64,000 nt of DNA from contig CAZBLD010000002.1 of the NCBI GenBank assembly GCA_964492875.1, positions 5,579-69,578 on the forward strand, in the 5' to 3' direction. Within the stretch, counting starts at the first letter, position 1, and each line of letters starts with the position of its first letter. A model generated the notes under the pieces. It saw only the letters and a program-made list of their open reading frames with translations, was not told the DNA's origin and made no database searches. The DNA is from an uncultured Planctomycetaceae bacterium. GTDB taxonomy: Bacteria > Planctomycetota > Phycisphaerae > Sedimentisphaerales > UBA12454. Of the stretch, positions 17 through 64,000 are shown piece after piece. Position numbers and translations under genes: made by a program.

Positions 17-153
17 CCCCCACACCTATTTACATTGTGGCGGCACAGTTTAAGAAAATACTCAAGGCTGCTTTGGCCGGTTTTCAAAATGCTCAACCGC
101 TGTGTAAACCCCCACGCCAATGTATTGGTGTGAGGGGTAAATAGGTGTGGGGG
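17..153. mobile_element. MITE copy 1 (TIR cccccacacctattt...aaataggtgtggggg) carrying a nested 29-bp palindrome at 109-137
   Basis: Terminal inverted repeats; interior aligns with 24158-24262; nested palindrome flanked by TAAA on both sides (105-108, 138-141). Confidence 0.8.
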
Positions 154-320
154 TAAATTATCGGACATTTGTCTTTCGTGCTTTTTCTGCTGCAATATTC
201 CACCGTAACTAAAATGGTGTTTTTGAAACAATATTCAGCCCTCTGAAAAAAGATAATTTTTTCATCTCTGCCGTTGTTAAGGTTCATCTGGTTTTTGACG
301 AACTTCAATTATCAAATTAA

Positions 321-716
321 ATGGAGACAGAGATGAACGAACAAACAGATGAGCGACGCAGGGAGAAACGTTTGAACTATCACTGGCCTGTCTGGTTTGC
401 CGAGGATTTTGGAGATGTCTTATCGCAGGGACAGATGTTTGACCTTTCCAGCAACGGAGCATCTTTTACATGCTACGCCGATACCTGCCCTTACGAAGGA
501 CAATATATCACCACAAGATTCAGCATACCACGTTATGGTCAGGATAATTCATTTGACCTTGAAAATTGTATAAGAAGCGGCTTCGTCTGCAGAATCGAGG
601 ACATCAACCCTTATATGAAAAAAGTCGCTCTGCAGTTTGCAGAACCCTTGCATTTTAAGCCCGGCGAACAGGAAGGAAAACGGTCAGCTGTCAAGCATAT
701 ACCTGCAGAGGTTTAA
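321..716 (+). CDS. PilZ-domain protein (c-di-GMP receptor)
   Basis: RxxxR (RREKR) followed by DxSxxG (DLSSNG). Confidence 0.8.
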   Translation: METEMNEQTDERRREKRLNYHWPVWFAEDFGDVLSQGQMFDLSSNGASFTCYADTCPYEGQYITTRFSIPRYGQDNSFDLENCIRSGFVCRIEDINPYMKKVALQFAEPLHFKPGEQEGKRSAVKHIPAEV

Positions 717-746
717 TCCAGCCATCGATTTCATATACACTTCGCC

Positions 747-777
747 ATCCGCCTTCGCCAAGGTTTCGTCGGACAAG
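747..777 (+). repeat. REP-like palindrome, family A (atccgccttcgc-N4/5-g[c/t]t[a/t]cg[g/t]cggacaag)
   Basis: atccgccttcgccaaggtttcgtcggacaag; near-identical copies at 31503 and 32397. Confidence 0.75.
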
Positions 778-1058
778 CAGGCGACCAAACCGGTTTACAA
801 CCGCTTTATTGCGACCGTTTTCACAAAAAAACCAATGAGTTCAGCAACAGAAAAACCGTTGACTTTTTGCGCCACCGGATAGCAGAGAACCTACTGTTCT
901 TGATTGTTCCGGCAAAGTTCGAGACAGATTAGAATTCTAAATTTTCCCCATTGCTTCATTCCAAAAATGGCGGTAATATATCACCTGAAAGTGTGTAAAA
1001 TTTTACATAAATCTTGGCAGTTAAACAAGTGTGGAATTTTCAGAGAGGTCAAGTAAAA

Positions 1059-1283
1059 ATGCCTGACCGGATTTCCAACGATAAAAATAAAAGATATTAT
1101 TTTAAATGGCTGGGCTTTGGGATTGAATTTGGGGGTGTAGTGGCAGTTTTCTGCTATATGGGCTATCAACTGGATGCCGCTTTAGATACAAGTCCTTATT
1201 TTCTGCTGACAGGTTTCTTTTTGAGTTTCATCGGTATGTTATATTTGGTTTTTAAGCAGACACGAGATATGTGGCGCAAGTAA
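1059..1283 (+). CDS. atpZ: AtpZ/AtpI-family ATP synthase accessory protein
   Basis: Two TM helices with GYQLDAALDTSPYF pattern, first in the atp operon; ATG 1059 preferred over the track start 1014 because of the AGAGG upstream. Confidence 0.75.
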   Translation: MPDRISNDKNKRYYFKWLGFGIEFGGVVAVFCYMGYQLDAALDTSPYFLLTGFFLSFIGMLYLVFKQTRDMWRK

Positions 1284-1366
1284 GAATCTTAAAAAACCTG
1301 GAGTTTTATTAAGCTTGTTTTTTAAACAAGTTTGGTATATATTTACAGGCAGTACTCTAACCGATA

Positions 1367-2206
1367 ATGACTGTATTTTATAAGCAGGAAATCTTGAACT
1401 TTATAAAATTATATGATTGTGTTTTAAGCGAATTCAATCCAATCGAGCAGGTTTTACCGGTGCCGTTGTTTACTTTTTCGGCTGGTGGTTACAAAATTGT
1501 GGTCAGCAACCATATGTTTATAATTACATTAGCGACGGTTGTGTTATTATTATTACTGTCTGTAGCGATGCGCTCTCCAAGACTTATCCCAAAAGGCCTT
1601 CAAAACCTCATAGAGTTGATTTGTGTTTATTTGCGCGAACAGATGGCACGGCCTGTTTTAGGCGAATACACCGACCGGTTTATTTGCTTTATTTGGACAA
1701 TATTTTTCTTTATACTAACTCTGAATCTGCTTGCTATGGTACCTCTGGATATGATTATATATCTGATAACCGGCAGGCACAACCATCTTGCCGGCGCTGC
1801 CACAGCCAACATCTGGATTACCGGCGGTCTTGCAATAGTCTCATTTTTTGTAATCCATATTGCCGGCATAAAAAAGCAGGGTCTATGGCATTATATAGTG
1901 AATTTCGCCCCCAAAACGCCGTGGCCGATGGTACCGATTGTGTATTTTCTGGAAATCATAAGTGCTTTCGTAAGACCGTTTGCACTGGCCGTCCGGCTTT
2001 TTGCAAATATGCTGGCCGGCCATACAGTACTGGCGGCATTCCTTGGACTGATACTTGTCTTCAAAAACTATGGTGTAGCATTTGCATCAGTAACAGCGAC
2101 TATAGCAGTGTCTTTTCTTGAATTACTCATAGCGTTTTTACAGGCGTATGTATTTACGTTTCTTTCTACCGTTTTTATAAGTTTTTCGATATCACAGGAA
2201 CATTAA
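1367..2206 (+). CDS. atpB: Fo subunit a
   Basis: PKGLQNLIE, conserved Arg in VRLFANMLAGH, FLQAYVF; start uncertain. Confidence 0.95.
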   Translation: MTVFYKQEILNFIKLYDCVLSEFNPIEQVLPVPLFTFSAGGYKIVVSNHMFIITLATVVLLLLLSVAMRSPRLIPKGLQNLIELICVYLREQMARPVLGEYTDRFICFIWTIFFFILTLNLLAMVPLDMIIYLITGRHNHLAGAATANIWITGGLAIVSFFVIHIAGIKKQGLWHYIVNFAPKTPWPMVPIVYFLEIISAFVRPFALAVRLFANMLAGHTVLAAFLGLILVFKNYGVAFASVTATIAVSFLELLIAFLQAYVFTFLSTVFISFSISQEH

Positions 2207-2225
2207 TTTTCGGAGATTCAAATTT

Positions 2226-2492
2226 ATGGAAGGTCTAACTAACACGACATTAGCGTTAACCTGGGGCGGCAGTGCTGCGGTTTTTGGAATAGTATTCAGC
2301 TGCAGTCTGGTGATTTTCGCTGCCAGCCTCGGGATAAGTCGAATCGGCAGCAAGGCCCTTGAATCACTGGCACGGCAGCCGGAGGCCGGCGAACGCATAT
2401 TTTCAACAATGATTATTGCTGCTGCTCTGCTTGAAGGCGTTACGTTTTTTGCCCTGCTGATCTGTTTTATGGCTCTTTTCTGGTCACGATAA
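2226..2492 (+). CDS. atpE: Fo subunit c, H+-type
   Basis: RQPE loop, essential Glu in LLEGV; lacks the Na+-binding Q and ES/T residues. Confidence 0.95.
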   Translation: MEGLTNTTLALTWGGSAAVFGIVFSCSLVIFAASLGISRIGSKALESLARQPEAGERIFSTMIIAAALLEGVTFFALLICFMALFWSR

Positions 2493-8026: not shown

Positions 8027-9943
8027 ATGGCAGATGTGGAAAATCATAAAACGGCAAAATCCATTTCAAAATCTTTTATAACTGCCGGCCCTACTCTGCA
8101 CTACAGCCACGCAAACGTAAACAGCTGTTATTTCCTCGCAGTTTGTGTGTATTATGCTTCTGCCGTTTTCTGTGCCAAGCTTCTGACCGGCCAGCTTATT
8201 TCTTTCTGGGGTCCATTTTATCTCGAGAAATTCGTTCCGACTCCCTTAAGTATTTTTGAATATCCCGCCCAGATATTTGTACTGGGACTTCTTGTCGGAA
8301 TCTTCATTGCAGTGCCGATTCTCGCCTCGCAGCTTATGAGTTTCAAATATAGTATCCTGTTTGTGCTGATACTGTCCTTCATAGCAGGTCTGCCGGGGCT
8401 TGCGATTTGTGTCCTGATTGGTGCCTTCGCTGCAGCATTGAGACCCTTGCGATTCAGGTCGCGATACATTGCCGTCGTTCTGTGTACTTCACCTGTATTT
8501 GTATATTTTGCACTTTTCGGCGGAGCAAAAAATACTGACAGCATCCGATGGGCTCTTTCTTTCGTGCCGTGGTTCTACGGCCTGTTTAATGCTCTGGCAA
8601 TCGCCGCCCTTGTTCTGGTGATAGGTCACTTTACCCGTTACAGACCGGGCTTGTTATGGAGCACCGCCGCCTGTGTCCTTGTTGCAACCATAATCGTTTT
8701 TCATAACACAATCAATCTTTCCGAGCTTGACTATCAGCTTTATGTCGCAAAGAACAACCCGGAAACAATACAGGAATTTCAGGACCACAGCATAACAGAT
8801 GCTCTCGACCGCACCGTAACAAGTCGTGAAAGCAGAAGTTATTTCCAGCCGCCTTTTTATCCCGTGGAGACTATAGCCTTAAGGACGGCATTAAAAAAGG
8901 AAATTCAGAACAGGCTTATACATGACCGCTGGCCGGAATGGTTCAATGTACCGCCTGAACTGAAACACCAGGGAAAAAAACAGTGGCTTTTAGAACAATA
9001 CGACAGATTTATAAACCCTCCCAAGCAATGGTGGAAGCCCGCTTTTATCCACAGGGCGCTTCTAAAAAGCAGAGTCAGAATAAAGCGTATGCCGATAGCG
9101 CTCTACTACAAAGCTATGTTAAGCGAGCTGGCGCCGGAGTTGAATATCCTCGTCGAAAAGGAAATACTGCATTTCTATAACGACTACCCGCACAGAGAAA
9201 ATTTGCCGATATGGCATAAACTCTTCTTCGAATATCCTGACAGCACAGAATCTCTCGAAGCCGCCTGGCGAAGAGCCGTTCACCTTGCCGGTATGGAACA
9301 ATTCTCCTCTGCCCGTCAGCTTATAGACCAGGCTCTTCTTATGATTAAGAACGAATCAACCAGCGCAACCGGTTCATCTTTATCCGCCGCAGCCCTGGCA
9401 AAGGCGGAAACGGATGAAACTGAAAGAATCTTTCGAAAGCCTCAGACAACCGTTATCACGGAATTTGAACTCAAAAAAATTAAAAGAAAACTGCAGTACC
9501 TGCGCAGTTTAATCAGCGAGGAAAATCCCGGCAGCGACAACAAAACCGCTCATCTGCTGGCACAGTTTATCTTGCTCAACCCCCATGACCAGTTTTTCAG
9601 ACTACAGCTTGATAATCTGCTGGCACAGGCAACAGATAAAAGTCCCATCGCTGATAATATATTACTTTCGCAAATCATGCTCACTCCGGATTCCGTTTTA
9701 AGACAGCAGCGTCTCGGCCAGCTTGCAAAGAATTACGCAGGCACCGATGGTGGCATACAGGCAGAATTTGAGCAGGCCTGTCTGAAACTGGCCATCTGGA
9801 AAGAACACAGCTTAAGCGACGCAGAAAAAGAAAGATACTTAACTGAAGCATATCAAGACCTTAAGGATTTCCTTAAAAACCACCCCGACAGCATTTTTGC
9901 AGACCAGGTCCGCGAAAAACTCTCCTCTATGCCCGTCCATTGA
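8027..9943 (+). CDS. Multi-pass membrane protein with a large C-terminal helical (TPR-like) soluble domain, function unknown
   Basis: About 7 hydrophobic segments in the N-terminal third; ATG 8027 chosen over TTG 7988. Confidence 0.75.
   Translation: MADVENHKTAKSISKSFITAGPTLHYSHANVNSCYFLAVCVYYASAVFCAKLLTGQLISFWGPFYLEKFVPTPLSIFEYPAQIFVLGLLVGIFIAVPILASQLMSFKYSILFVLILSFIAGLPGLAICVLIGAFAAALRPLRFRSRYIAVVLCTSPVFVYFALFGGAKNTDSIRWALSFVPWFYGLFNALAIAALVLVIGHFTRYRPGLLWSTAACVLVATIIVFHNTINLSELDYQLYVAKNNPETIQEFQDHSITDALDRTVTSRESRSYFQPPFYPVETIALRTALKKEIQNRLIHDRWPEWFNVPPELKHQGKKQWLLEQYDRFINPPKQWWKPAFIHRALLKSRVRIKRMPIALYYKAMLSELAPELNILVEKEILHFYNDYPHRENLPIWHKLFFEYPDSTESLEAAWRRAVHLAGMEQFSSARQLIDQALLMIKNESTSATGSSLSAAALAKAETDETERIFRKPQTTVITEFELKKIKRKLQYLRSLISEENPGSDNKTAHLLAQFILLNPHDQFFRLQLDNLLAQATDKSPIADNILLSQIMLTPDSVLRQQRLGQLAKNYAGTDGGIQAEFEQACLKLAIWKEHSLSDAEKERYLTEAYQDLKDFLKNHPDSIFADQVREKLSSMPVH
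9383..9408 (-). repeat. Family A palindrome, in frame inside a CDS (SAAALAKAE)
   Basis: tccgccgcagccctggcaaaggcgga matches the reverse-complement family A consensus. Confidence 0.65.
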
Positions 9944-10074
9944 CCCCGCACCTATTGTTCCGTGCTATCTGGCGGTAGAATCATTTGAGCCAGGCGCCTT
10001 TTGAATCGACTCTTTTTTGGTTTTAGTACAGTACAATAGGTGCGGAGTTGACAAATTCACCCATTTTGCCTAAT

Positions 10075-24097: not shown

Positions 24098-24157
24098 TAC
24101 CTCGCTTCCACGTGAAAAATTATAGCAGAAAACGCCCTAAAAATCAATGCAGATTTA

Positions 24158-24262
24158 CCCCCACACCAATTCATATTGTGGCAACAAGACCTGAAAAAAC
24201 ATTCAAAAACCACTTTGGCGGGTTTTCAAAATGTTCAATCAACGTGTGAATTGGTGTGGGGG
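24158..24262. mobile_element. MITE copy 2, 105 bp, TTTA target duplication
   Basis: cccccacaccaatt/aattggtgtggggg TIR; TTTA at 24154-57 and 24263-66; interior homologous to copy 1. Confidence 0.85.
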
Positions 24263-24263
24263 T

Positions 24264-24827
24264 TTATTCTTCCGGCTGTTTAAGCTCCTCTGCCTTTGGA
24301 AGGTCTTTTAGGTCATTTAACCCGAATACTTCGAGAAACTTTTTTGTTGTGCCGTAAAGAAGCGGTCTGCCGAGGATTTCCGCCTTGCCGACAATCTTGA
24401 CAAAACCTTTATACATCAGCGAGCGAATCAGCTCACCGCAGGCAACGCCTCGAATCCCCTCGACATCAGCTCTTATTACCGGCTGTTTGTAGGCAATGAT
24501 GGCAAGAGTCTCTAATGCGGCAGGAGTCAGCTTATTATCTCCTCGCTGGCGCAAAAGTTTTTTAAGCCAGCTATTATAATCAGGCAGCGTCATCATCTGG
24601 AAGCCGCCGGCAATCTCCTCTATTCTGAATGAGCGGCCGCTCTGGCGGTACTGCTCATTGAGCATTTCAATACATTTTTTAACCTGTTTTACACCGCCGT
24701 TGAGTTCGGCAATGGCAACAAGTCTTTCAGCCGACAGCGGCTCATCAGAAGCAAAAAGTATCGCCTCAACTACCGATTCAGTAGTTATCTGTTGTGATAG
24801 GGTATTCTGCTGAAATTCTTCGCTCAT
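24264..24827 (-). CDS. scpB: SMC-Scp complex subunit ScpB
   Basis: VEAILFASDEP, AALETLAIIAYKQP, GRPLLYGTT..FL..FGL; ATGA overlap with the nif3 stop. Confidence 0.95.
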   Translation of the reverse strand: MSEEFQQNTLSQQITTESVVEAILFASDEPLSAERLVAIAELNGGVKQVKKCIEMLNEQYRQSGRSFRIEEIAGGFQMMTLPDYNSWLKKLLRQRGDNKLTPAALETLAIIAYKQPVIRADVEGIRGVACGELIRSLMYKGFVKIVGKAEILGRPLLYGTTKKFLEVFGLNDLKDLPKAEELKQPEE

Positions 24828-53347: not shown

Positions 53348-53375
53348 CCCCTGCACCAATACATTGGTGTGGGGG
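53348..53375. mobile_element. Short 28-bp palindrome sharing ends with the MITE family
   Basis: cccctgcaccaatacattggtgtggggg followed by ttta; near-identical to the nested element at 109-137. Confidence 0.7.
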
Positions 53376-58132: not shown

Positions 58133-59635
58133 TTACTGCCTAAGAGAACATACTATCGAATAATCAATCAATCTGTTGCCGAACCTTGTAACCTGGTTGG
58201 CTGAGACAAGCGAAGCAGAATTTATTCTTTTGCTTTGTCCCAGAAGACCAACAAGGTTGTTAACGGCTTCATAGCTGACCGCGAGTCCGTCAATTTCCAT
58301 TATATTGTCGCCTTTTCCCTGCAGATTCTCTATAAGCACGGTTTGTGGTACAATGTTCGCCAGCTCGGTCAGCAGTTTACCCCAGTTGTGGTAGCTCCTG
58401 TCCTCGACGGCTTTCAAAACCGCCGCAAGATTATTCTCAGCGAGTTTGGCCCTCTTGCTGACGTTTCTTTCTGACCCAGCCAGCTTGAGCATGTTGACCT
58501 CGATACGCTTTTGTTTTGTTGCATAAATATCGCGACTGACTTCCACCGACTTTCTGCTCAGAAAAGCGATTTGCAGGAACAACAGGACAAGCAGACAGGC
58601 AGCAACATTCGCGATTACGAGCATTTCTTTTGTCGCTTTTCTAATTAAGATGATTTCCTTCGGCAGCAGGTTCAGCTTAATTACGCTTTTGTCTTCGTCG
58701 AGCAGTCTCATAGCCGCCCCTGCGGCTACGGGCGAAACCTCCTCATCGTCATCTCCCTTCATTACTACATCCATCAGACTGTTTTCATAAGCCGTAATTT
58801 CAATATCCTGCCGCGGGATTTGACTCCTGATTTCACCGGCAATTTGAGTGCTGTATTTGTTTTCCGGGGAGCAGGCAATAAATATCTGCCAGCCCTGCGT
58901 CTTGGTCTTTTTTTCAAGTTCCTGAAACCGGATTACAGACTCAACTTCATATTTGAGCCAGCTACTTCGCTGCTCTGACCCGACAATATCAGCCTCGAAT
59001 TTCTTCGCTCTGAGGAACTCAAGTCTCTGTTTTTCAAAGACGCACAGATTCAGACTGTCATCCCGGACAAGCAGAAGCATAATATTTTTTTCTTTTTGCG
59101 GTTTGATTATCCTGTCGTAACATACTCTGATAAAAGCCGTAACAGCCGGCTCGATTACCGAGACATTAATATTGTCTTTCTCAACCGCCTTTACCGTCAT
59201 GCTTAAATGCTCAGTCTGTGCCGCTCCGACAAGAACTCGCTTCGTCTTAGCATCGGAAGATTTTAGTCCGCAATAATCCATTTCAATATTTTTCAACGGC
59301 AGAACGGCGTATTGTCTGACCTCGTTCTGAATGATTTTTCTTACTTCGCCGGGCGCCGAATCGGGCAGATTCAATATCTGTAAAAGGATTGGCTCGGCAC
59401 AAATGGTCAGCGTTGTATTGCTGTGTTTGAATGTCCCTGCAATTTTCAATTGTTTCAGTACCTCTGCCAGCGCCGCCGGCGCCTGTACGACCCCGTCACT
59501 TACTACTGCCTGGTCAAGAGGGACGTTTCCTGCGCGTACAACCTTTATCTGTGAACCGCTTTTCCGCAGTTCCGTGAAACTCACGGCGTTTTTGCAGACA
59601 TCTATGCCGAACGCTTTTTTACTCCCTGTTCTCAT
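58133..59635 (-). CDS. PilM-PilN fusion protein
   Basis: FGIDV actin-like N-terminus, IEMDY, NLLP PilN motif, TM, then EIDGLA..Y..V. Confidence 0.8.
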   Translation of the reverse strand: MRTGSKKAFGIDVCKNAVSFTELRKSGSQIKVVRAGNVPLDQAVVSDGVVQAPAALAEVLKQLKIAGTFKHSNTTLTICAEPILLQILNLPDSAPGEVRKIIQNEVRQYAVLPLKNIEMDYCGLKSSDAKTKRVLVGAAQTEHLSMTVKAVEKDNINVSVIEPAVTAFIRVCYDRIIKPQKEKNIMLLLVRDDSLNLCVFEKQRLEFLRAKKFEADIVGSEQRSSWLKYEVESVIRFQELEKKTKTQGWQIFIACSPENKYSTQIAGEIRSQIPRQDIEITAYENSLMDVVMKGDDDEEVSPVAAGAAMRLLDEDKSVIKLNLLPKEIILIRKATKEMLVIANVAACLLVLLFLQIAFLSRKSVEVSRDIYATKQKRIEVNMLKLAGSERNVSKRAKLAENNLAAVLKAVEDRSYHNWGKLLTELANIVPQTVLIENLQGKGDNIMEIDGLAVSYEAVNNLVGLLGQSKRINSASLVSANQVTRFGNRLIDYSIVCSLRQ

Positions 59636-60030
59636 TCGTTTATCCTCAACTTATCAATCCGTATCACATAAGGACTTATGCCGCTGATTGTGATTTCCGC
59701 CTTCACCGTGGCAACGAAACCCTGCGGCGAGGTGCCTATCGAGGTAATGTTAGGGTCCAGAGGTGTTCCTGCTATCGTAACGGTATATGAGCCGCCGCCA
59801 AAGCTGCTGGAACCGCTACTCCAGTTCGGGTCGCTTCGCAACTGACTGAATGCATCAGCAATGCCTGCTTCTGCAATTGCAATCGCCTCTGCAGCGAAGA
59901 CCTCATTTTTCATAATCTGTATCTGTTCGGTATCTAATTGCAGTATTCCTGCGACAAGTGCCGCCAGCAGCGCTATGGTAAAAACCACAACAATCAATAC
60001 CGACCCGTCATTTTTCGTCTTTGTTCTCAT
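59632..60030 (-). CDS. PilX-like minor pilin
   Basis: GSVLIVVVF leader and A..IAEAGI. Confidence 0.75.
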   Translation of the reverse strand: MRTKTKNDGSVLIVVVFTIALLAALVAGILQLDTEQIQIMKNEVFAAEAIAIAEAGIADAFSQLRSDPNWSSGSSSFGGGSYTVTIAGTPLDPNITSIGTSPQGFVATVKAEITISGISPYVIRIDKLRINE

Positions 60031-60042
60031 AGCAGTTTCGCT

Positions 60043-62658
60043 TTAAGGTCTTATCTGGCCTCCGCAATAAACATCCTGGCTGGCCGGAGCGGCTATTGCT
60101 ATCGTAAGTGTCCTCGCCTCGTTCGATGAGCCAAGTGAGAAGGTCGAGGTCTCGCTGTTGCCGCTTACCAACTGTCTGACGTATCCTGCGCCGCCTGAGA
60201 CCGCGCCTTCAAGCCCTATGCCCTGTACTACAAAGCCAATAATCGCCTGACGGCCCACAGTGCCGGAGAAAGTAGCGCGTGGTGTTTCGGCAACTCCGGT
60301 CGCGGATTTGTGGCCAGTTACACCAGTATGCCCATTAGCCCCAACCGATTGATCGGTTCCTTCAATAAAGCCGTTGTTTAATGTATATGAACCGTTATTA
60401 CCGCAAACAGCGGCTACAATTACCATATCCCCGCCTCCCGTAGAAAGCGGGTCGGTCTCGATTGGATTTGTACTGCTTGTCGTACTTGCGCTGTCAGTAG
60501 CTCCGATGATATCCGTTTGGTCCACATTCTGTAGGAATACGCTGGCGTACGAGACGCTGCTGGGCGGATCGCCCCAAGTGGGAACGAACGTTCCACTGGT
60601 CGCGGCGGTGATTCCTGCCTCATTGAGGATAAAGGCCGCGACATAATTCCGAAAGCTGCTCGTGCCAGCGGTAATATCAATAACCTTGGTCATCGTTTGG
60701 CCACCGTAGGTCACAGTCAAAGATGGAGCGACGTTATCCTCCCAGTGAGCAATAAAAATCAAAGCACGGTTGGTGCCAGACTCTTTTGCATGAGTTGTGC
60801 CTGTCGCCCACGAGCCGAGTATCGCAACCGCTCCGGTACCACCACTGGAGCTCTTGTCCATCGTAATTGCGGTATGGCCGGGAAGGCCGGGATAACCGGG
60901 TTCCGGAAGAGTGTTGACATCACCATCATCAAACGCTCCCAGACGAAGAATCAGGCAATTGCTGAGAGTTGTGGTTACTTCAGGACTAGTTGGAGTGATG
61001 CTGGAATCGTTGTAAGCCGACCAGATATGAATTGGATTGTTAGGGTCGTGGCCTGTAAAACGCATCATCCAGCCGTAGGCCTGCTGGCCTCCTGTCCAGG
61101 TAAAATTATAACTGGCCGGCTCTGATGCACCTGCGATTTTCTGCCAGGCCCCCAGCGTTACCGCAGTGCCGTAAGCTGTGCAATCGATTTGCGTCCAGCC
61201 GCTTGGTACACCTGTAAATGGGGTAGAACTCTCATCCGTGGCGACCGCTGCAATCAGCAGGTCGCCTACATTTACATCACTAGGCTTCGGAATAGTAATA
61301 TAATTACTGTCGGAGCTGACTTTGGCTTCTTCGAACGTCCTGAACTTGAGGATATTAGCCAGTTGTGCGACCTCCTGAGCGCTCATAGCATAGTTGTAGA
61401 TACGCACATCATCGATGATGCCGCTAAATAAGCCAGAAGAAGAAGTACCATTAACTGAGTTACTTCTCCTGCCTATGTTGAACCAATTTCCCTGATTGGT
61501 TAAAGTGCCGGGATAGTGGACTGAGCCAATTAACCCACCATCAACATAAGCTAGCGCATCATTGCCATTCCATGTCACAGCAATATGGGACCAAGTATAC
61601 TCAGGCCATGGCACAGTTGGAAAATCTGCTGGTGTTGTACCATTAAGGACTACTCCCAATGCCCCACCACTTATTGGGGTCCTGACATAAATTCCATACT
61701 GCATATTCGCAGTGGTGCTGGTGTTCCTTGTAACAATATATTCATATGCAGGGTCTCCCACAAAATATACCCAGGCAGATATAGTAAAAACTCTCGACAG
61801 GTTAAGTGTAGATGTAGCACTTCTTGATACATAATCATTAGACCCATCGAACGACAGGGCACCGCCGATTTGTCCTGCGACCCAGCAGCCCGGCGTGGCC
61901 ATATTGTACAGTGTCCCATCGCCGCCGTTGCCTGACGAATCCGTCGCGGTTGTTCCGCTGGTCTCATCCAGCTTCCAATGCCCTATAAGCCCCCACTTGG
62001 TATTGGCGTTTGTTTGCAGATAGGCGGATGCGGTGAAGGTCCTGTCAGTTCCTGTGTCATTATTTGGAAAATCTGTCTCGATTTGTACAAGTCGAATAGC
62101 ATTTACATCGGTGGCATTTACATCGGCCGTGGGATGGTTAAGGTCATTCAGGGAATAGCAGCTAATTTGCAATCTGTCGACAGGTCCTGCAAGCTGTGCT
62201 TCACTGCCGACGGCGCCGAAAACGACATATCCGCCGGAGAGCATATAACATTGGTTGACGTCGTTATTATCTTTAAACCTTATAAAGCCGCTGGTTTGAC
62301 TGCTGGGGCTGACGCCGATAATCTTCTTTGCCGCTGAAAGATTTCTGGTAATGTGCTCGGCAAGGATTCTGCCGTTCTGGATTATCTCAGCCTGTGCTTC
62401 GGTGCTGGTCCAACTGTTTCTGATGGCCCTGAACTGCGGCACAACCGCTGCAAAGATGATTACGATTATTGCGAACGCAACTATTAACTCAACGAGACTA
62501 AATCCCTCACACCTATTTGCACAGCGGCACCACAAGCTAATAGTAGTATGCGACTTTGCAGTACTATTCGGCTCCACATTTGCAGGCACAATGCAAATAG
62601 GTGTAGGGGCAAAACCGTTTTTGTCTTTTTCTTTGCGCATTGCGTACTCTGTCTGCAC
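60043..62658 (-). CDS. Type IV pilin-anchored adhesin with LamG and further beta-rich domains
   Basis: GFSLVELIV N-methylation motif; HWKLDE...ALSFDG...IDDVRIYN LamG. Confidence 0.88.
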   Translation of the reverse strand: MQTEYAMRKEKDKNGFAPTPICIVPANVEPNSTAKSHTTISLWCRCANRCEGFSLVELIVAFAIIVIIFAAVVPQFRAIRNSWTSTEAQAEIIQNGRILAEHITRNLSAAKKIIGVSPSSQTSGFIRFKDNNDVNQCYMLSGGYVVFGAVGSEAQLAGPVDRLQISCYSLNDLNHPTADVNATDVNAIRLVQIETDFPNNDTGTDRTFTASAYLQTNANTKWGLIGHWKLDETSGTTATDSSGNGGDGTLYNMATPGCWVAGQIGGALSFDGSNDYVSRSATSTLNLSRVFTISAWVYFVGDPAYEYIVTRNTSTTANMQYGIYVRTPISGGALGVVLNGTTPADFPTVPWPEYTWSHIAVTWNGNDALAYVDGGLIGSVHYPGTLTNQGNWFNIGRRSNSVNGTSSSGLFSGIIDDVRIYNYAMSAQEVAQLANILKFRTFEEAKVSSDSNYITIPKPSDVNVGDLLIAAVATDESSTPFTGVPSGWTQIDCTAYGTAVTLGAWQKIAGASEPASYNFTWTGGQQAYGWMMRFTGHDPNNPIHIWSAYNDSSITPTSPEVTTTLSNCLILRLGAFDDGDVNTLPEPGYPGLPGHTAITMDKSSSGGTGAVAILGSWATGTTHAKESGTNRALIFIAHWEDNVAPSLTVTYGGQTMTKVIDITAGTSSFRNYVAAFILNEAGITAATSGTFVPTWGDPPSSVSYASVFLQNVDQTDIIGATDSASTTSSTNPIETDPLSTGGGDMVIVAAVCGNNGSYTLNNGFIEGTDQSVGANGHTGVTGHKSATGVAETPRATFSGTVGRQAIIGFVVQGIGLEGAVSGGAGYVRQLVSGNSETSTFSLGSSNEARTLTIAIAAPASQDVYCGGQIRP
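62503..62609. mobile_element. MITE copy 3, 107 bp, in frame within the prepilin leader
   Basis: ccctcacacctatttgca/tgcaaataggtgtagggg TIR; flanks TAAA and CAAA; ends align with copy 1. Confidence 0.85.
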
Positions 62659-62900
62659 CTTAATCCTTAAAAAATATCGGCTTATAATCCGTTCGTGCTA
62701 ACCTCCAATCAGGGACTTATATGTGAAAAACGAAGATATGAAAAATTCAAATTGTCTAACTGCTAATTTTACTTTTATGGGACTTATCGGCACGATTACC
62801 AACCTGCCGTTTACATAATCGGAAAAGTCCTATAATTACTTCTTGCTTCTAACCTCTGACTTGTGGCTTCTGAATTATTTTTATGCTAAAATTGGCGGCT

Positions 62901-64000
62901 ATGACAAAGCAGATTTTAGACCTTACAGGCAAATGGCAGTTCAAGGAATATCCGGCTTCTGCCCGGAGAATGCGCGATTTGGATGCGGTTTCGACAGGCT
63001 CACCACAAGAGGGAAACTGGCTCAACTGCCCCGTCCCCTCGTCAATTTACACCTGTCTGCTCGAAGCAGGTCTTATTAAACTTTCCGATTTAAATTCAAA
63101 TCCAAAAGACTTTCTCTGGCCCAGCGAAAAATCATGGATATTTCAAAAGATTTTTGATATCGACGCCGAATTTCTCGAATTCGAAGGGACAGAGCTTGTC
63201 TTTGACGGTCTCGACACTTTCTGTCAAATCTGGCTCAACGACAAACTCGTCACAAAAACCGATAATATGTTCTGTTCATATCGCTTTGACGTAAAGGCAC
63301 TGCTGAAGAAAAACAATCGCCTGCTGATAAAATGTGATTCGCCGCTGGCGGAAGGTAATCGTCTGATGAGGCGTTTCGGCATACTCAGTAATGACAACTA
63401 TTCTCTGCTGTGCAGGTCGTATATCCGCAAAGCACAATGCCAGTTCGGCTGGGACTTTTGTCCGCCTCTGCCCGGCTGCGGCATCTGGCAGCCGGTTCGT
63501 ATCGAGGGTTTCAACTCTGCCTGCCTGCGCGACATCCACATAAGAACTATTGAGGCCGACCCCGGCAGTGCTGATATGAAGATTTCTGTTCAAATTGAAA
63601 AATTTGCAAATCAGTCTTCAATCCGCTGCAGGCTTACAGTTTTTGACCCTCTCGACAACACCTGCGTTGACCGGGAACTTGATTTCGGTGATGGAAATAT
63701 TATTTCTACGGTACTAAAGATAAAACCTGTATTTCTTTGGTGGCCAGTCTCTTACGGTTCTCAGCCGCTTTATACCCTCAAGGTTGAGCTTCTCAATGAA
63801 GACCAACTCATCGAGACATCATTGAAAAAATTCGGTATAAGAACGGTACATCTCAACCAGACGCCTGACGATATGGGTTCGACAGGCTCACCACAGGTCG
63901 GCAGCCCCTTCAAGTTCATAGTGAACAATCGTCCCGTTTACGTCCGAGGTGCATCGTGGGTACCGGCATCGCTGCTGGTTGGTTCAGTCACCAAAACCGA
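62901..64000 (+). CDS. GH2 beta-mannosidase-like glycoside hydrolase, partial (runs off the window)
   Basis: Hand translation: LVFDGLDT, TDNMF, RKAQCQFGWD, GIWQPV, LWWP..YG.QPLY, FGIRTV; absent from the track because it has no stop. Confidence 0.9.
   Translation, partial: MTKQILDLTGKWQFKEYPASARRMRDLDAVSTGSPQEGNWLNCPVPSSIYTCLLEAGLIKLSDLNSNPKDFLWPSEKSWIFQKIFDIDAEFLEFEGTELVFDGLDTFCQIWLNDKLVTKTDNMFCSYRFDVKALLKKNNRLLIKCDSPLAEGNRLMRRFGILSNDNYSLLCRSYIRKAQCQFGWDFCPPLPGCGIWQPVRIEGFNSACLRDIHIRTIEADPGSADMKISVQIEKFANQSSIRCRLTVFDPLDNTCVDRELDFGDGNIISTVLKIKPVFLWWPVSYGSQPLYTLKVELLNEDQLIETSLKKFGIRTVHLNQTPDDMGSTGSPQVGSPFKFIVNNRPVYVRGASWVPASLLVGSVTKT

What the first reader, a model, noticed from the sequence alone, without database searches (positions are those of the whole stretch)
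62503..62613. MITE inserted in frame at the prepilin cleavage site rebuilds the G-F motif
The leader reads KNGF-APTPIC...ANRCE-GF-SLVEL. The 107-bp element plus 4-bp duplication equals 111 bp (37 codons) with no stop, and the element end (gag gga ttt a) recreates Gly-Phe ahead of SLVEL. The added peptide would therefore be removed by prepilin peptidase and the mature pilin left unchanged. Inference: GF[S/T] codons (GGN TTT A) are a natural TTTA target and a phenotypically silent haven, and the insertion could still modulate pilin expression.
Basis: partly seen in the sequence, partly recalled or inferred. Interest (0 to 1): 0.78.

Follow-up and report, generated by a model that had tools for sequence, protein, structure and literature searches.

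The report
Transposon hidden in pilin leader peptide
A 107-base mobile element sits in frame exactly at the cleavage site of a pilin-like gene and rebuilds that site, and about half of the sampled copies of this element family in related bacteria sit at the same kind of site, a pattern I found no report of.

Summary
On the minus strand, a pilin-like LamG gene (60043..62640) carries a 107-bp MITE (62503..62609) plus a 4-bp TTTA duplication. That is 111 bp, 37 codons and no stop, placed between Phe10 and Ser11 of the original leader. The element ends in a G run and the duplication is TTTA, so the 3' junction reads GGR-TTT, which is Gly-Phe, directly before SLVEL and the hydrophobic helix.

A syntenic ortholog has the empty site (GGT TTT ACT CTC). 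A 95.6%-identical pair of alleles in related genomes differs by exactly element plus TTTA.

TIR-pattern scans of public genomes and metagenomes gave 62 unique insertion sites. Of these, 28 are prepilin cleavage sites in about 20 different pilin genes, all in one orientation. At those sites 26 of 28 are in frame and stop-free; elsewhere 10 of 27 have a frame-compatible length and 21 of 27 have stops. Two subfamilies, including the window's, occur only at prepilin sites.

In an unbiased ortholog sample, 3 of 10 TTTA-type sites are filled and none of about 50 non-TTTA sites holds a member of this family.

Removal of the leader and any regulatory effect remain inferred. In-frame MITEs are known (Rickettsia RPEs); this site specificity appears new.

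The parts
60043..62640 (-). Pilin-like (prepilin-type N-terminus plus LamG domain) gene, 865 aa. It is the first gene of a pilMN-pilO-secretin operon.
   Evidence: ORF. The exact protein was called from this ATG on two other assemblies, with Pfam N_methyl and Laminin_G_3. Homologs are named PulG/PilE-like pseudopilins. It is intact over 96% of the length of its closest ortholog, P0002.
62638..62640 (-). ATG start codon, shared with the empty-site orthologs.
   Evidence: The 5'UTR and ATG context (...ataagccgatatttttaaagGAttaaGGtgcagacagagtacRca ATG) are conserved in filled and empty loci.
62610..62613 (-). Upstream copy of the target-site duplication (TTTG, originally TTTA). It lies in Phe10 and the first base of Ala11.
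   Evidence: L003 carries the same subfamily at the same site with a perfect TTTA here. The empty alleles read GGT TTT ACT or GGT TTT AGT.
62503..62609 (-). The 107-bp MITE (subfamily 1). In the gene's frame it is translated as (A)PTPICIVPANVEPNSTAKSHTTISLWCRCANRCEG.
   Evidence: The empty/filled pair L095/L003 differs by exactly this element plus TTTA.
62592..62609 (-). Terminal inverted repeat on the gene's 5' side (CCCCTACACCTATTTGCA).
   Evidence: pair I2. Family consensus.
62503..62521 (-). Terminal inverted repeat on the gene's 3' side (TGCAAATAGGTGTGAGGGA). Its last bases form the Gly46 codon GGA.
   Evidence: The 11-nt end variant GGTGTGAGGGG is also seen at window 127-137.
62499..62502 (-). 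Downstream copy of the target-site duplication (TTTA). It gives Phe47, residue +1 of the mature protein, and the first base of Ser48.
62431..62505 (-). The functional cleavage/methylation motif G46|F47-S-L-V-E51 followed by the hydrophobic helix (FSLVELIVAFAIIVIIFAAVV).
   Evidence: TIGR02532 (IV_pilin_GFxxxE) aligns to residues 46-66 at 14.1 bits. With the insert removed the score is 20.1 bits, above the 16.3-bit cut-off.
62611..62616 (-). The original Gly9-Phe10, now stranded upstream of the element and followed by APTPIC instead of a hydrophobic helix.
17..153 (+). Intergenic copy of the same family (subfamily 7) with flanks TACA/TAAA. It carries a nested 29-bp mini-element at 109..137, flanked by TAAA/TAAA.
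24158..24262 (+). Intergenic copy (subfamily 7, 105 bp) with a perfect TTTA duplication. Its length is not frame-compatible and it has stops.
53348..53375 (+). Mini-element made of two abutting TIRs, with TTTA on its right flank.

Best explanation
A non-autonomous DNA transposon (MITE, ends CCCCC...GGGGG, target TTTA, 4-bp duplication) inserted into the TTT-A of the Gly-Phe-Ser/Thr codons at the prepilin cleavage site of a pilin-like LamG gene.

Shown:
- The element and its duplication add 111 bp in frame with no stop.
- The element's terminal G run plus the duplicated TTT give GGR-TTT, which is Gly-Phe, next to the untouched SLVEL and hydrophobic helix.
- Empty alleles exist.
- The same thing has happened many times independently in related genomes, under a strong filter for frame, openness and orientation.

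Inferred:
- Translation starts at the original ATG and reads through the element, giving a 46-residue, net-positive, cytoplasmic leader in place of 9 residues.
- Prepilin peptidase cuts at the downstream G|F, so the mature pilin is unchanged and the insertion is nearly silent.
- The family accumulates at such sites because GF[T/S] codons offer its TTTA target inside one of the few coding positions where 35-37 extra residues are later discarded.
For: - Anatomy.
- Empty ortholog: L007/L008 at a syntenic locus read AAC GGT TTT ACT CTC GTT GAG.
- Presence/absence pair: L095 and L003 are 95.6% identical over 727 nt and differ by exactly 107 bp plus TTTA.
- Start codon: the 5'UTR and ATG are conserved in filled and empty alleles.
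- Scale: 89 TIR-pattern matches collapse to 62 unique sites, of which 28 are prepilin sites in about 20 different pilin or pseudopilin genes.
- Frame and stops: 26 of 28 prepilin-site copies are in frame and open; elsewhere 10 of 27 have a frame-compatible length and 21 of 27 have stops.
- Orientation: it is mixed at other sites (10 TTTA, 7 TAAA) but 28 of 28 the same at pilin sites. The reverse orientation has stops in 21 of those 28 copies.
- Independent events: three subfamilies occupy the same orthologous site.
- Age: the window and L003 elements differ by 7.5% while their flanks differ by 21%, so the elements are younger than the split between the host genes.
- Relaxed upstream copy: the upstream duplicate of the motif decays (TTTG here; ATCA and AAAA in L010 and L015) while the downstream one is kept.
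- Peptide not conserved: between this copy and L003 there are about 7 non-synonymous and 2 synonymous changes.
- Long leaders are normal here: homologs have naturally long leaders, up to about 45 residues.
- Motif model: TIGR02532 aligns to the downstream GF.
Against: - No experiment shows cleavage of a 46-residue leader. Characterised prepilin leaders run to roughly 30 residues (own knowledge).
- The TIGR02532 score drops below its cut-off in the filled allele (14.1 against 16.3 bits).
- The element forms a strong mRNA hairpin 30 nt after the ATG (-56.5 kcal/mol, z = -2.6). This could reduce translation, so the insertion may not be strictly silent.
- The enrichment (45% of sampled sites) is larger than a passive haven easily predicts, and flank logos show no extended target motif that would explain it.
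- Pilin-site copies are not more diverged than the others, so simply surviving longer is not demonstrated.
- The search pattern was partly derived from pilin-site copies, which may inflate their share.
Confidence: 0.75

Rival explanations
1. The element is specialised for prepilin sites. Either its transposase actively prefers them, or the insertion benefits the host (for example the mRNA hairpin or a longer leader tunes pilin output), or the element has adapted (length 3n+2, open frame, terminal GGG) to live in a cleaved leader. The enrichment is then more than passive tolerance.
For: - Subfamilies 1 (8 sites) and 4 (7 sites) were found only at prepilin sites.
- Two nearly identical copies in one MAG (L015 and L016) both sit in different pilin genes.
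- Two adjacent pilin genes on one contig are both filled (L034).
- The same orthologous site was hit by at least three subfamilies.
- 28 of 47 TTTA-type prepilin sites in the pooled loci are filled, and 3 of 10 in the unbiased sample.
- Pilin-site copies are no older than the others.
Against: - Flanks of non-pilin insertions show no G-rich or pilin-like extended target.
- The orientation and frame biases are fully explained by stop codons and frame, that is by selection after insertion.
- The peptide sequence is not conserved.
- No transposase was identified.
- There is sampling bias from the search pattern and from repeated sampling of one sediment system.
Confidence: 0.3
2. Translation starts inside the element, so the element supplies a new leader. 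The upstream ATG-to-GF stretch is then an untranslated remnant or a short upstream ORF.
For: Subfamily 4 carries an internal ATG preceded by a purine-rich stretch (GGAAAAATATG). In L028 and L056 the 103-bp element is out of frame with the upstream ATG, so only the internal start, giving MRKQIYRQISNFLANKKLVRGF|TISELL, can make the pilin. In L015 only two codons precede the element.
Against: - The window's subfamily 1 has no internal ATG. Its only candidates are GTG and TTG codons without a Shine-Dalgarno-like sequence.
- All 8 unique subfamily-1 sites keep frame and openness back to an upstream ATG. That would be unnecessary if translation began inside the element.
- The 5'UTR and ATG are conserved with the empty alleles.
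- No promoter-like site lies in the element.
Confidence: 0.1
3. The insertion has inactivated the gene. The long, hairpin-forming leader blocks translation, membrane insertion or processing, and the open frame is a young accident.
For: The mRNA hairpin is strong. The leader is longer than characterised ones. The motif model falls below its cut-off.
Against: - The 865-codon frame is intact and co-linear with the ortholog P0002.
- The filled state with an open frame recurs at 26 of 28 sites in about 20 genes, which is not expected for pseudogenes.
- The upstream TSD and the element have accumulated substitutions but no frameshift or stop.
- The gene heads a conserved pilMNOQ operon.
Confidence: 0.08
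4. The 37 residues are an ancestral, vertically inherited leader extension of this pilin family rather than a mobile insertion.
For: Several orthologs share an insert at the same position.
Against: - Intergenic copies have TTTA duplications and nested insertions.
- Empty alleles include one 95.6% identical to a filled one.
- Three subfamilies that cannot be aligned with each other occupy the same site.
- The same subfamily occurs in unrelated pseudopilin genes (L019 at 740, L039 at 3815, L046).
- The elements are less diverged than their flanks.
Confidence: 0.02

Closest known systems
Rickettsia palindromic elements (RPEs) and other intragenic MITEs (ERIC, Anabaena MITEb/e)
   Same: Short palindromic mobile elements of about 100-150 bp that insert in frame into protein-coding genes, add a peptide segment and leave the host protein functional (review PMC10969869).
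   Different: RPEs are scattered through unrelated metabolic genes and the added peptide stays in the protein. Here insertions converge on one motif, the prepilin G|F[T/S] site. The element regenerates that motif with its own terminal bases plus the duplication, and the added peptide is predicted to be cut off. There is no sequence relationship. The review does not mention pilins or leader peptides.
piggyBac / IS1380 superfamily transposons
   Same: Termini begin CCC, the target-site duplication is 4 bp and AT-rich (TTAA for piggyBac, with rare TAAA variants), and IS1380 is the prokaryotic relative (PMC10813416). piggyBac excises seamlessly (PMC7351741, title and abstract). Seamless excision would restore an intact pilin site.
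   Different: The target here is TTTA, not TTAA. No transposase with these TIRs was found in the loci held. The link rests on end and duplication features only, so it is a lead and not a membership.
Prepilin-type N-terminal cleavage/methylation proteins (TIGR02532 / PF07963), including type IVb pilins with long leaders
   Same: Gly at -1, Phe at +1, Glu at +5, a hydrophobic helix of about 20 residues, a positively charged leader, and a pilMNOQ-type gene neighbourhood.
   Different: The leader is 46 residues, of which 37 come from a transposon, and it contains a second, orphan G-F. Characterised leaders run from about 5 to about 30 residues (own knowledge).
Correia elements of Neisseria
   Same: MITEs of about 100-150 bp with long TIRs and an AT-rich target. 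They are co-transcribed with neighbouring genes, and their RNA hairpins can affect transcript fate (own knowledge).
   Different: Correia elements are intergenic, duplicate TA, and are not reported as translated parts of pilin leaders.

Membership tests
MITE (miniature inverted-repeat transposable element) | Terminal inverted repeats | tested here: met
   18-nt arms, 89% complementary. The TIRs are conserved across about 55 complete copies.
MITE (miniature inverted-repeat transposable element) | Target-site duplication of fixed length | tested here: met
   The duplication is TTTA/TAAA, perfect at 21 of 28 pilin sites and 17 of 27 other sites. In this copy it is TTTG/TTTA.
MITE (miniature inverted-repeat transposable element) | Many dispersed copies, small size, no transposase gene | tested here: met
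   Copies are 101-107 bp. There are 4 or 5 copies in the window and 62 unique sites in the public data.
MITE (miniature inverted-repeat transposable element) | Empty sites showing insertion polymorphism | tested here: met
   L007/L008. L095 against L003: 95.6% identical flanks and a difference of exactly element plus TTTA.
MITE (miniature inverted-repeat transposable element) | An autonomous partner IS with matching TIRs and duplication length | tested here: inconclusive
   No TIR pair 0.4-4 kb apart in about 1 Mb of loci held. Whole genomes were not available.
Prepilin-type N-terminal cleavage/methylation domain (TIGR02532, PF07963) | G at -1, F (or another hydrophobic residue) at +1, E at +5, then about 20 hydrophobic residues | tested here: met
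   G46|F47 S L V E51 followed by LIVAFAIIVIIFAAVV.
Prepilin-type N-terminal cleavage/methylation domain (TIGR02532, PF07963) | Profile score above the curated cut-off | tested here: inconclusive
   14.1 bits against a 16.3-bit cut-off in the real protein, and 20.1 bits once the insert is removed. Pfam N_methyl is recorded as 'faint'.
Prepilin-type N-terminal cleavage/methylation domain (TIGR02532, PF07963) | Short, positively charged leader | tested here: not met
   The leader is 46 residues (9 without the insert). Its net charge is about +3 (read from the sequence).
Prepilin-type N-terminal cleavage/methylation domain (TIGR02532, PF07963) | Cleavage and N-methylation by a prepilin peptidase | not testable with these tools
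   Needs protein chemistry.
RPE-like in-frame intragenic MITEs | In-frame, stop-free insertion into an ORF that is kept | tested here: met
   37 codons with no stop, and 26 of 28 at pilin sites.
RPE-like in-frame intragenic MITEs | Insertion into many unrelated genes, with the peptide retained in the product | tested here: not met
   No site outside prepilin motifs combined a frame-compatible length with an open frame. The coding context of those other sites was not examined further. The peptide lies upstream of the predicted cleavage point.
IS1380 / piggyBac-type transposon | CCC termini and a 4-bp AT-rich duplication | tested here: met
   CCCCC...GGGGG ends and a TTTA duplication. The piggyBac features are from PMC10813416.
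IS1380 / piggyBac-type transposon | A cognate DDE transposase of that family | not tested
   No candidate element was available.

The most novel reading that the evidence does not exclude
This is a transposon family that has specialised in living inside cleaved prepilin leader peptides. Its ends and target regenerate the peptidase site. Its successful subfamilies have evolved a 3n+2 length and an open frame, and some carry their own start codon and so act as a portable leader. It reaches these sites far more often than chance because of active targeting or a benefit to the host, for example hairpin- or leader-mediated tuning of pilin output, possibly reversible by seamless excision.
Probability: 0.3. 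Interest if true: 0.88.

Novelty: new variant of a known kind. Interest (0 to 1): 0.78.

Why it matters
It shows a way for a transposon to sit inside a coding sequence at almost no cost. The added peptide lies upstream of a protease cut that the element itself rebuilds.

- For mobile-DNA biology, this is a clear case of a coding safe haven defined by protein processing rather than by protein structure. It comes with a natural data set (about 28 independent sites, with filled and empty alleles) in which to separate target choice from selection.
- For type IV filament biology, it implies that prepilin peptidases of Phycisphaerae accept leaders of 45 residues or more with arbitrary sequence. It also suggests that transposon insertion and decay are one source of the long, variable leaders seen in this family.
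- Practically, gene callers and motif models (TIGR02532) under-score such genes, and filled/empty alleles could serve as strain markers.

Tried and rejected
- An exact search for the 106-bp element in GTDB representative genomes found nothing, so the source genome is not a representative there.
- A 41-residue profile of the insert peptides run through the search for homologous proteins gave only 2 candidates.
- An exhaustive phmmer search with the 38-residue peptide against 1.84 billion representatives gave one irrelevant repeat protein. Short queries and 50%-identity representatives hide the inserts.
- A search for an autonomous IS, as TIR pairs 0.4-4 kb apart in all loci held, found none. 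ORFs next to truncated copies were unrelated genes or other ISs.
- A promoter and terminator scan of 62350..62910 found nothing inside the element.
- Flank logos gave no extended target motif beyond TTTA followed by a base other than A.
- The divergence-to-consensus comparison of pilin-site and other copies was inconclusive on whether pilin copies are older.
- Seven literature searches and three papers read found no report of a MITE at a prepilin cleavage site. The Haloquadratum paper that matched the search terms was irrelevant.
- I considered and rejected an ancestral leader extension and a Cys-rich functional peptide. The cysteines come from the TIR palindrome and are absent in other subfamilies.
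Full report
**1. What is in the window**

The finding lies on the minus strand. ORF 60043..62640 (ATG at 62640, 865 aa) reads MRKEKDKNGF-APTPICIVPANVEPNSTAKSHTTISLWCRCANRCEGF-SLVELIVAFAIIVIIFAAVV.... The same protein, called from the same ATG, occurs on two other assemblies with Pfam N_methyl and Laminin_G_3.

Downstream on the same strand lie a GspK-like minor pseudopilin (59632..60030), a PilM-PilN fusion, a PilO-like gene and a secretin. The gene therefore heads a type IV filament operon. Homologs come from Sedimentisphaerales and Phycisphaerae MAGs.

**2. The insert is a MITE**

- The arms 62504-62521 and 62592-62609 are 18-nt inverted repeats.
- The TIR core is far over-represented in the window.
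- Other copies show the family's anatomy. 24158..24262 is 105 bp with TTTA on both sides. 17..153 carries a 29-bp mini-element nested at a TAAA inside its own TIR. 53348..53375 is another mini-element.
- In this copy the element is 62503..62609 (107 bp) between TAAA (62499-62502) and CAAA (62610-62613) on the plus strand.
- A near-identical copy at the same site in locus L003 has perfect TTTA on both sides and ends GAG GGG. So the window copy has two later substitutions: TTTA to TTTG in the upstream duplicate (Thr to Ala) and GGG to GGA (synonymous).

**3. Empty sites**

The loci of the closest homologs are syntenic: a divergent GH2 gene, the pilin gene, a 134-aa gene, PilMN, PilO, a secretin, a gene of about 598 aa, CoaE, Rho and Lon.

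L007/L008 (P0002, 61% identical protein) read AAC GGT TTT ACT CTC GTT GAG at the site, which is empty.

L095 is 95.6% identical to the filled L003 over 727 nt. It differs by exactly the 107-bp element plus one TTTA. That is a clean presence/absence polymorphism. The 5'UTR and ATG are conserved in all of these loci, so the filled alleles keep the start codon of the empty ones.

**4. Why Gly-Phe is rebuilt**

The family's ends are CCCCC...GGGGG and its target is TTTA. If the TTT of the target is an in-frame Phe codon, the 3' junction must read GGG-TTT-A, which is Gly-Phe and then a codon starting with A (Thr, Ser-AGY or Asn). The 5' junction reads TTT-ACC-CCC-ACA-CC, which is Phe-Thr-Pro-Thr-Pro. 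The peptidase motif is therefore duplicated. Only the downstream copy adjoins the hydrophobic helix. TIGR02532 aligns to residues 46-66.

**5. The pattern is general**

- A 23-nt degenerate pattern for the polarity-bearing TIR was scanned over GTDB representative genomes (14 matches) and JGI metagenomes (66 loci).
- With the window included there are 89 matches, which collapse to 62 unique sites.
- 28 of the 62 are prepilin cleavage sites: the downstream sequence reads [FL][ST]xxE followed by a hydrophobic helix. They lie in about 20 different pilin or pseudopilin genes.
- 27 are other sites, mostly with perfect TTTA or TAAA duplications. 7 are truncated or interrupted copies.
- By comparison, the window alone has 814 TTTA sites on both strands and one prepilin site.

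**6. Signatures of selection**

- Length and openness: at pilin sites 26 of 28 copies have length 101, 104 or 107 (3n+2, so in frame once the 4-bp duplication is added) and are stop-free from an upstream ATG 7-73 nt before the element. Elsewhere lengths run from 87 to 107, 10 of 27 are frame-compatible and 21 of 27 have stops in that frame (Fisher p = 1.3e-5 and 6.7e-8).
- Orientation: at other sites both orientations occur (10 TTTA, 7 TAAA). At pilin sites all 28 have the ATTGTG end upstream, and the reverse orientation would introduce stops in 21 of those 28 copies.
- TIR variant: the common end ...AAATAGGTGTGGGGG would give a TAG in the 104-bp frame. Pilin-site copies use the AATTGG variant. 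Subfamily 1, which includes the window copy, instead uses an 11-nt end, GGTGTGAGGGG, that shifts the frame.
- Upstream motif: the upstream duplicate of the motif is free to decay (TTTG here; ATCA and AAAA in L010 and L015), while the downstream one is kept.
- Peptide: the sequence is not conserved. Between the window and L003 there are about 7 non-synonymous and 2 synonymous differences.

Together these results argue that translation reads through the element from the original ATG, and that only the downstream G|F matters.

**7. Independent events**

- The same orthologous site carries three subfamilies that cannot be aligned internally: subfamily 1 in the window and L003, subfamily 5 in L005, and subfamily 7 in L006. 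In L016 a fourth subfamily sits at a Gly-Leu-Thr site with a CTTA duplication.
- The window's subfamily also sits in unrelated pseudopilin genes (L019 at 740, L039 at 3815, L046, L032).
- The window and L003 elements differ by 7.5% while their flanks differ by 21%. The elements are therefore younger than the split between the host genes, which points to independent insertion or transfer rather than shared inheritance.
- Subfamilies 1 and 4 were found only at pilin sites.

**8. An unbiased sample**

Sixty orthologous loci were fetched using the mature N-terminal domain only, independent of any MITE.

- Ten have a TTTA-type junction (G/A-F-T/S/N). Three of these are filled (L093, L099, L147). 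An eleventh locus, L098, also holds a copy at a TTTA junction, but only a partial gene match brought it in, so it is left out of the count.
- About fifty have non-TTTA junctions (A|LT, G|LT, A|IT and so on). None holds a member of this family.
- L106 holds a different, related element with TIR CCCAGCACCAATTT.

Occupancy therefore tracks the TTTA target.

**9. Exceptions and caveats**

- L028 and L056 (subfamily 4, 103 bp) are out of frame with the upstream ATG and can only use an ATG inside the element. So a portable leader exists in that subfamily. The window's subfamily has no internal ATG.
- The element forms a strong hairpin in the mRNA 30 nt after the ATG (-56.5 kcal/mol, z = -2.6). An effect on expression is plausible but untested.
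- The enrichment is larger than a purely passive haven easily explains. No extended target motif was found, and pilin-site copies are not older than the others. Active targeting or a benefit to the host stays open.
- The search pattern was derived partly from pilin-site copies, and many metagenome loci come from one sediment series.
- Cleavage of a 46-residue leader is inferred. It is made plausible by the naturally long leaders of homologs and by the cytoplasmic location of prepilin leaders (established knowledge of type IV pilin biogenesis).

**10. Comparison with what is known**

In-frame intragenic MITEs are known, above all the Rickettsia RPEs (PMC10969869). Those scatter over unrelated genes and their peptide stays in the product. 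The CCC ends and 4-bp AT-rich duplication recall piggyBac and its prokaryotic relative IS1380 (PMC10813416), but no transposase was found. Literature searches found no report of a MITE at a prepilin cleavage site.

**Verdict.** This is a new variant of a known kind.

Noticed in passing
window 109..137 (nested in the copy 17..153); window 53348..53375; L047; L078: A 29-bp mini-element made of two abutting TIRs (CCCCCACGCCAAT-GTA-TTGGTGTGAGGGG) transposes on its own with TAAA duplications. In L078 it has inserted inside a pilin-site MITE. That insertion is 33 bp, again in frame and open, whereas the orthologous L065 lacks it.
   Followed up: partly
L106 about 1415..1500 (MAG contig CAZLIO010000006.1): A shorter, related palindromic element (TIR CCCAGCACCAATTT...AAATTGGTGCTGGG) sits in frame at a Gly|Leu-Thr prepilin site of an ortholog, so other element families may use the same haven.
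   Followed up: no
P0027, P0014, P0050, P0093, P0128-type leaders; L128: Several homologs have leaders with short palindromic-looking segments (for example ...GLLHCRLASRCKG|V and ...PLHGLRPRRGG|L). These may be decayed remnants of such insertions, which would make MITEs a source of the long, variable leaders in this family.
   Followed up: no
window 9943..10048: Another palindromic repeat of about 106 bp (arms ACCCCGCACCTATTGTTCCGTGCTA / TAGTACAGTACAATAGGTGCGGAGT, 84% complementary) with a similar TIR core. It may be a related MITE family in an intergenic position.
   Followed up: no
L003/L005/L006/L007 against the window, pilin gene 3' halves: At this syntenic locus the conserved N-terminal pilin domain of about 200 aa is joined to different C-terminal modules in different genomes (LamG, CBM96, DUF1349; lengths 612 to over 1000 aa). 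This suggests cassette-like exchange of the distal domain.
   Followed up: no
L034 about 592..1089 (contig Ga0315291_10000400) and L039 3815 and 7112 (Ga0315291_10000111): Two pilin genes in one cluster each carry their own copy of the element. In L034 the two filled sites are only 475 bp apart and their elements differ by 9.6%.
   Followed up: partly
L057 about 170..2360 after a truncated MITE: Transposase-like ORFs (a helix-turn-helix protein and a DDE-like protein) are inserted into, or abut, a truncated copy of the MITE. They look like an unrelated IS rather than the autonomous partner.
   Followed up: no
window 24154..24266 against L053/L058/L061/L085: The intergenic copy at 24158 appears to lie at a site orthologous to copies in several metagenome contigs (shared flanks ..gcagaTTTA / TTTA..ggctgttt..ctc.tctg). 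Some of the 'unique' non-pilin sites are therefore probably the same ancestral insertion counted more than once.
   Followed up: no
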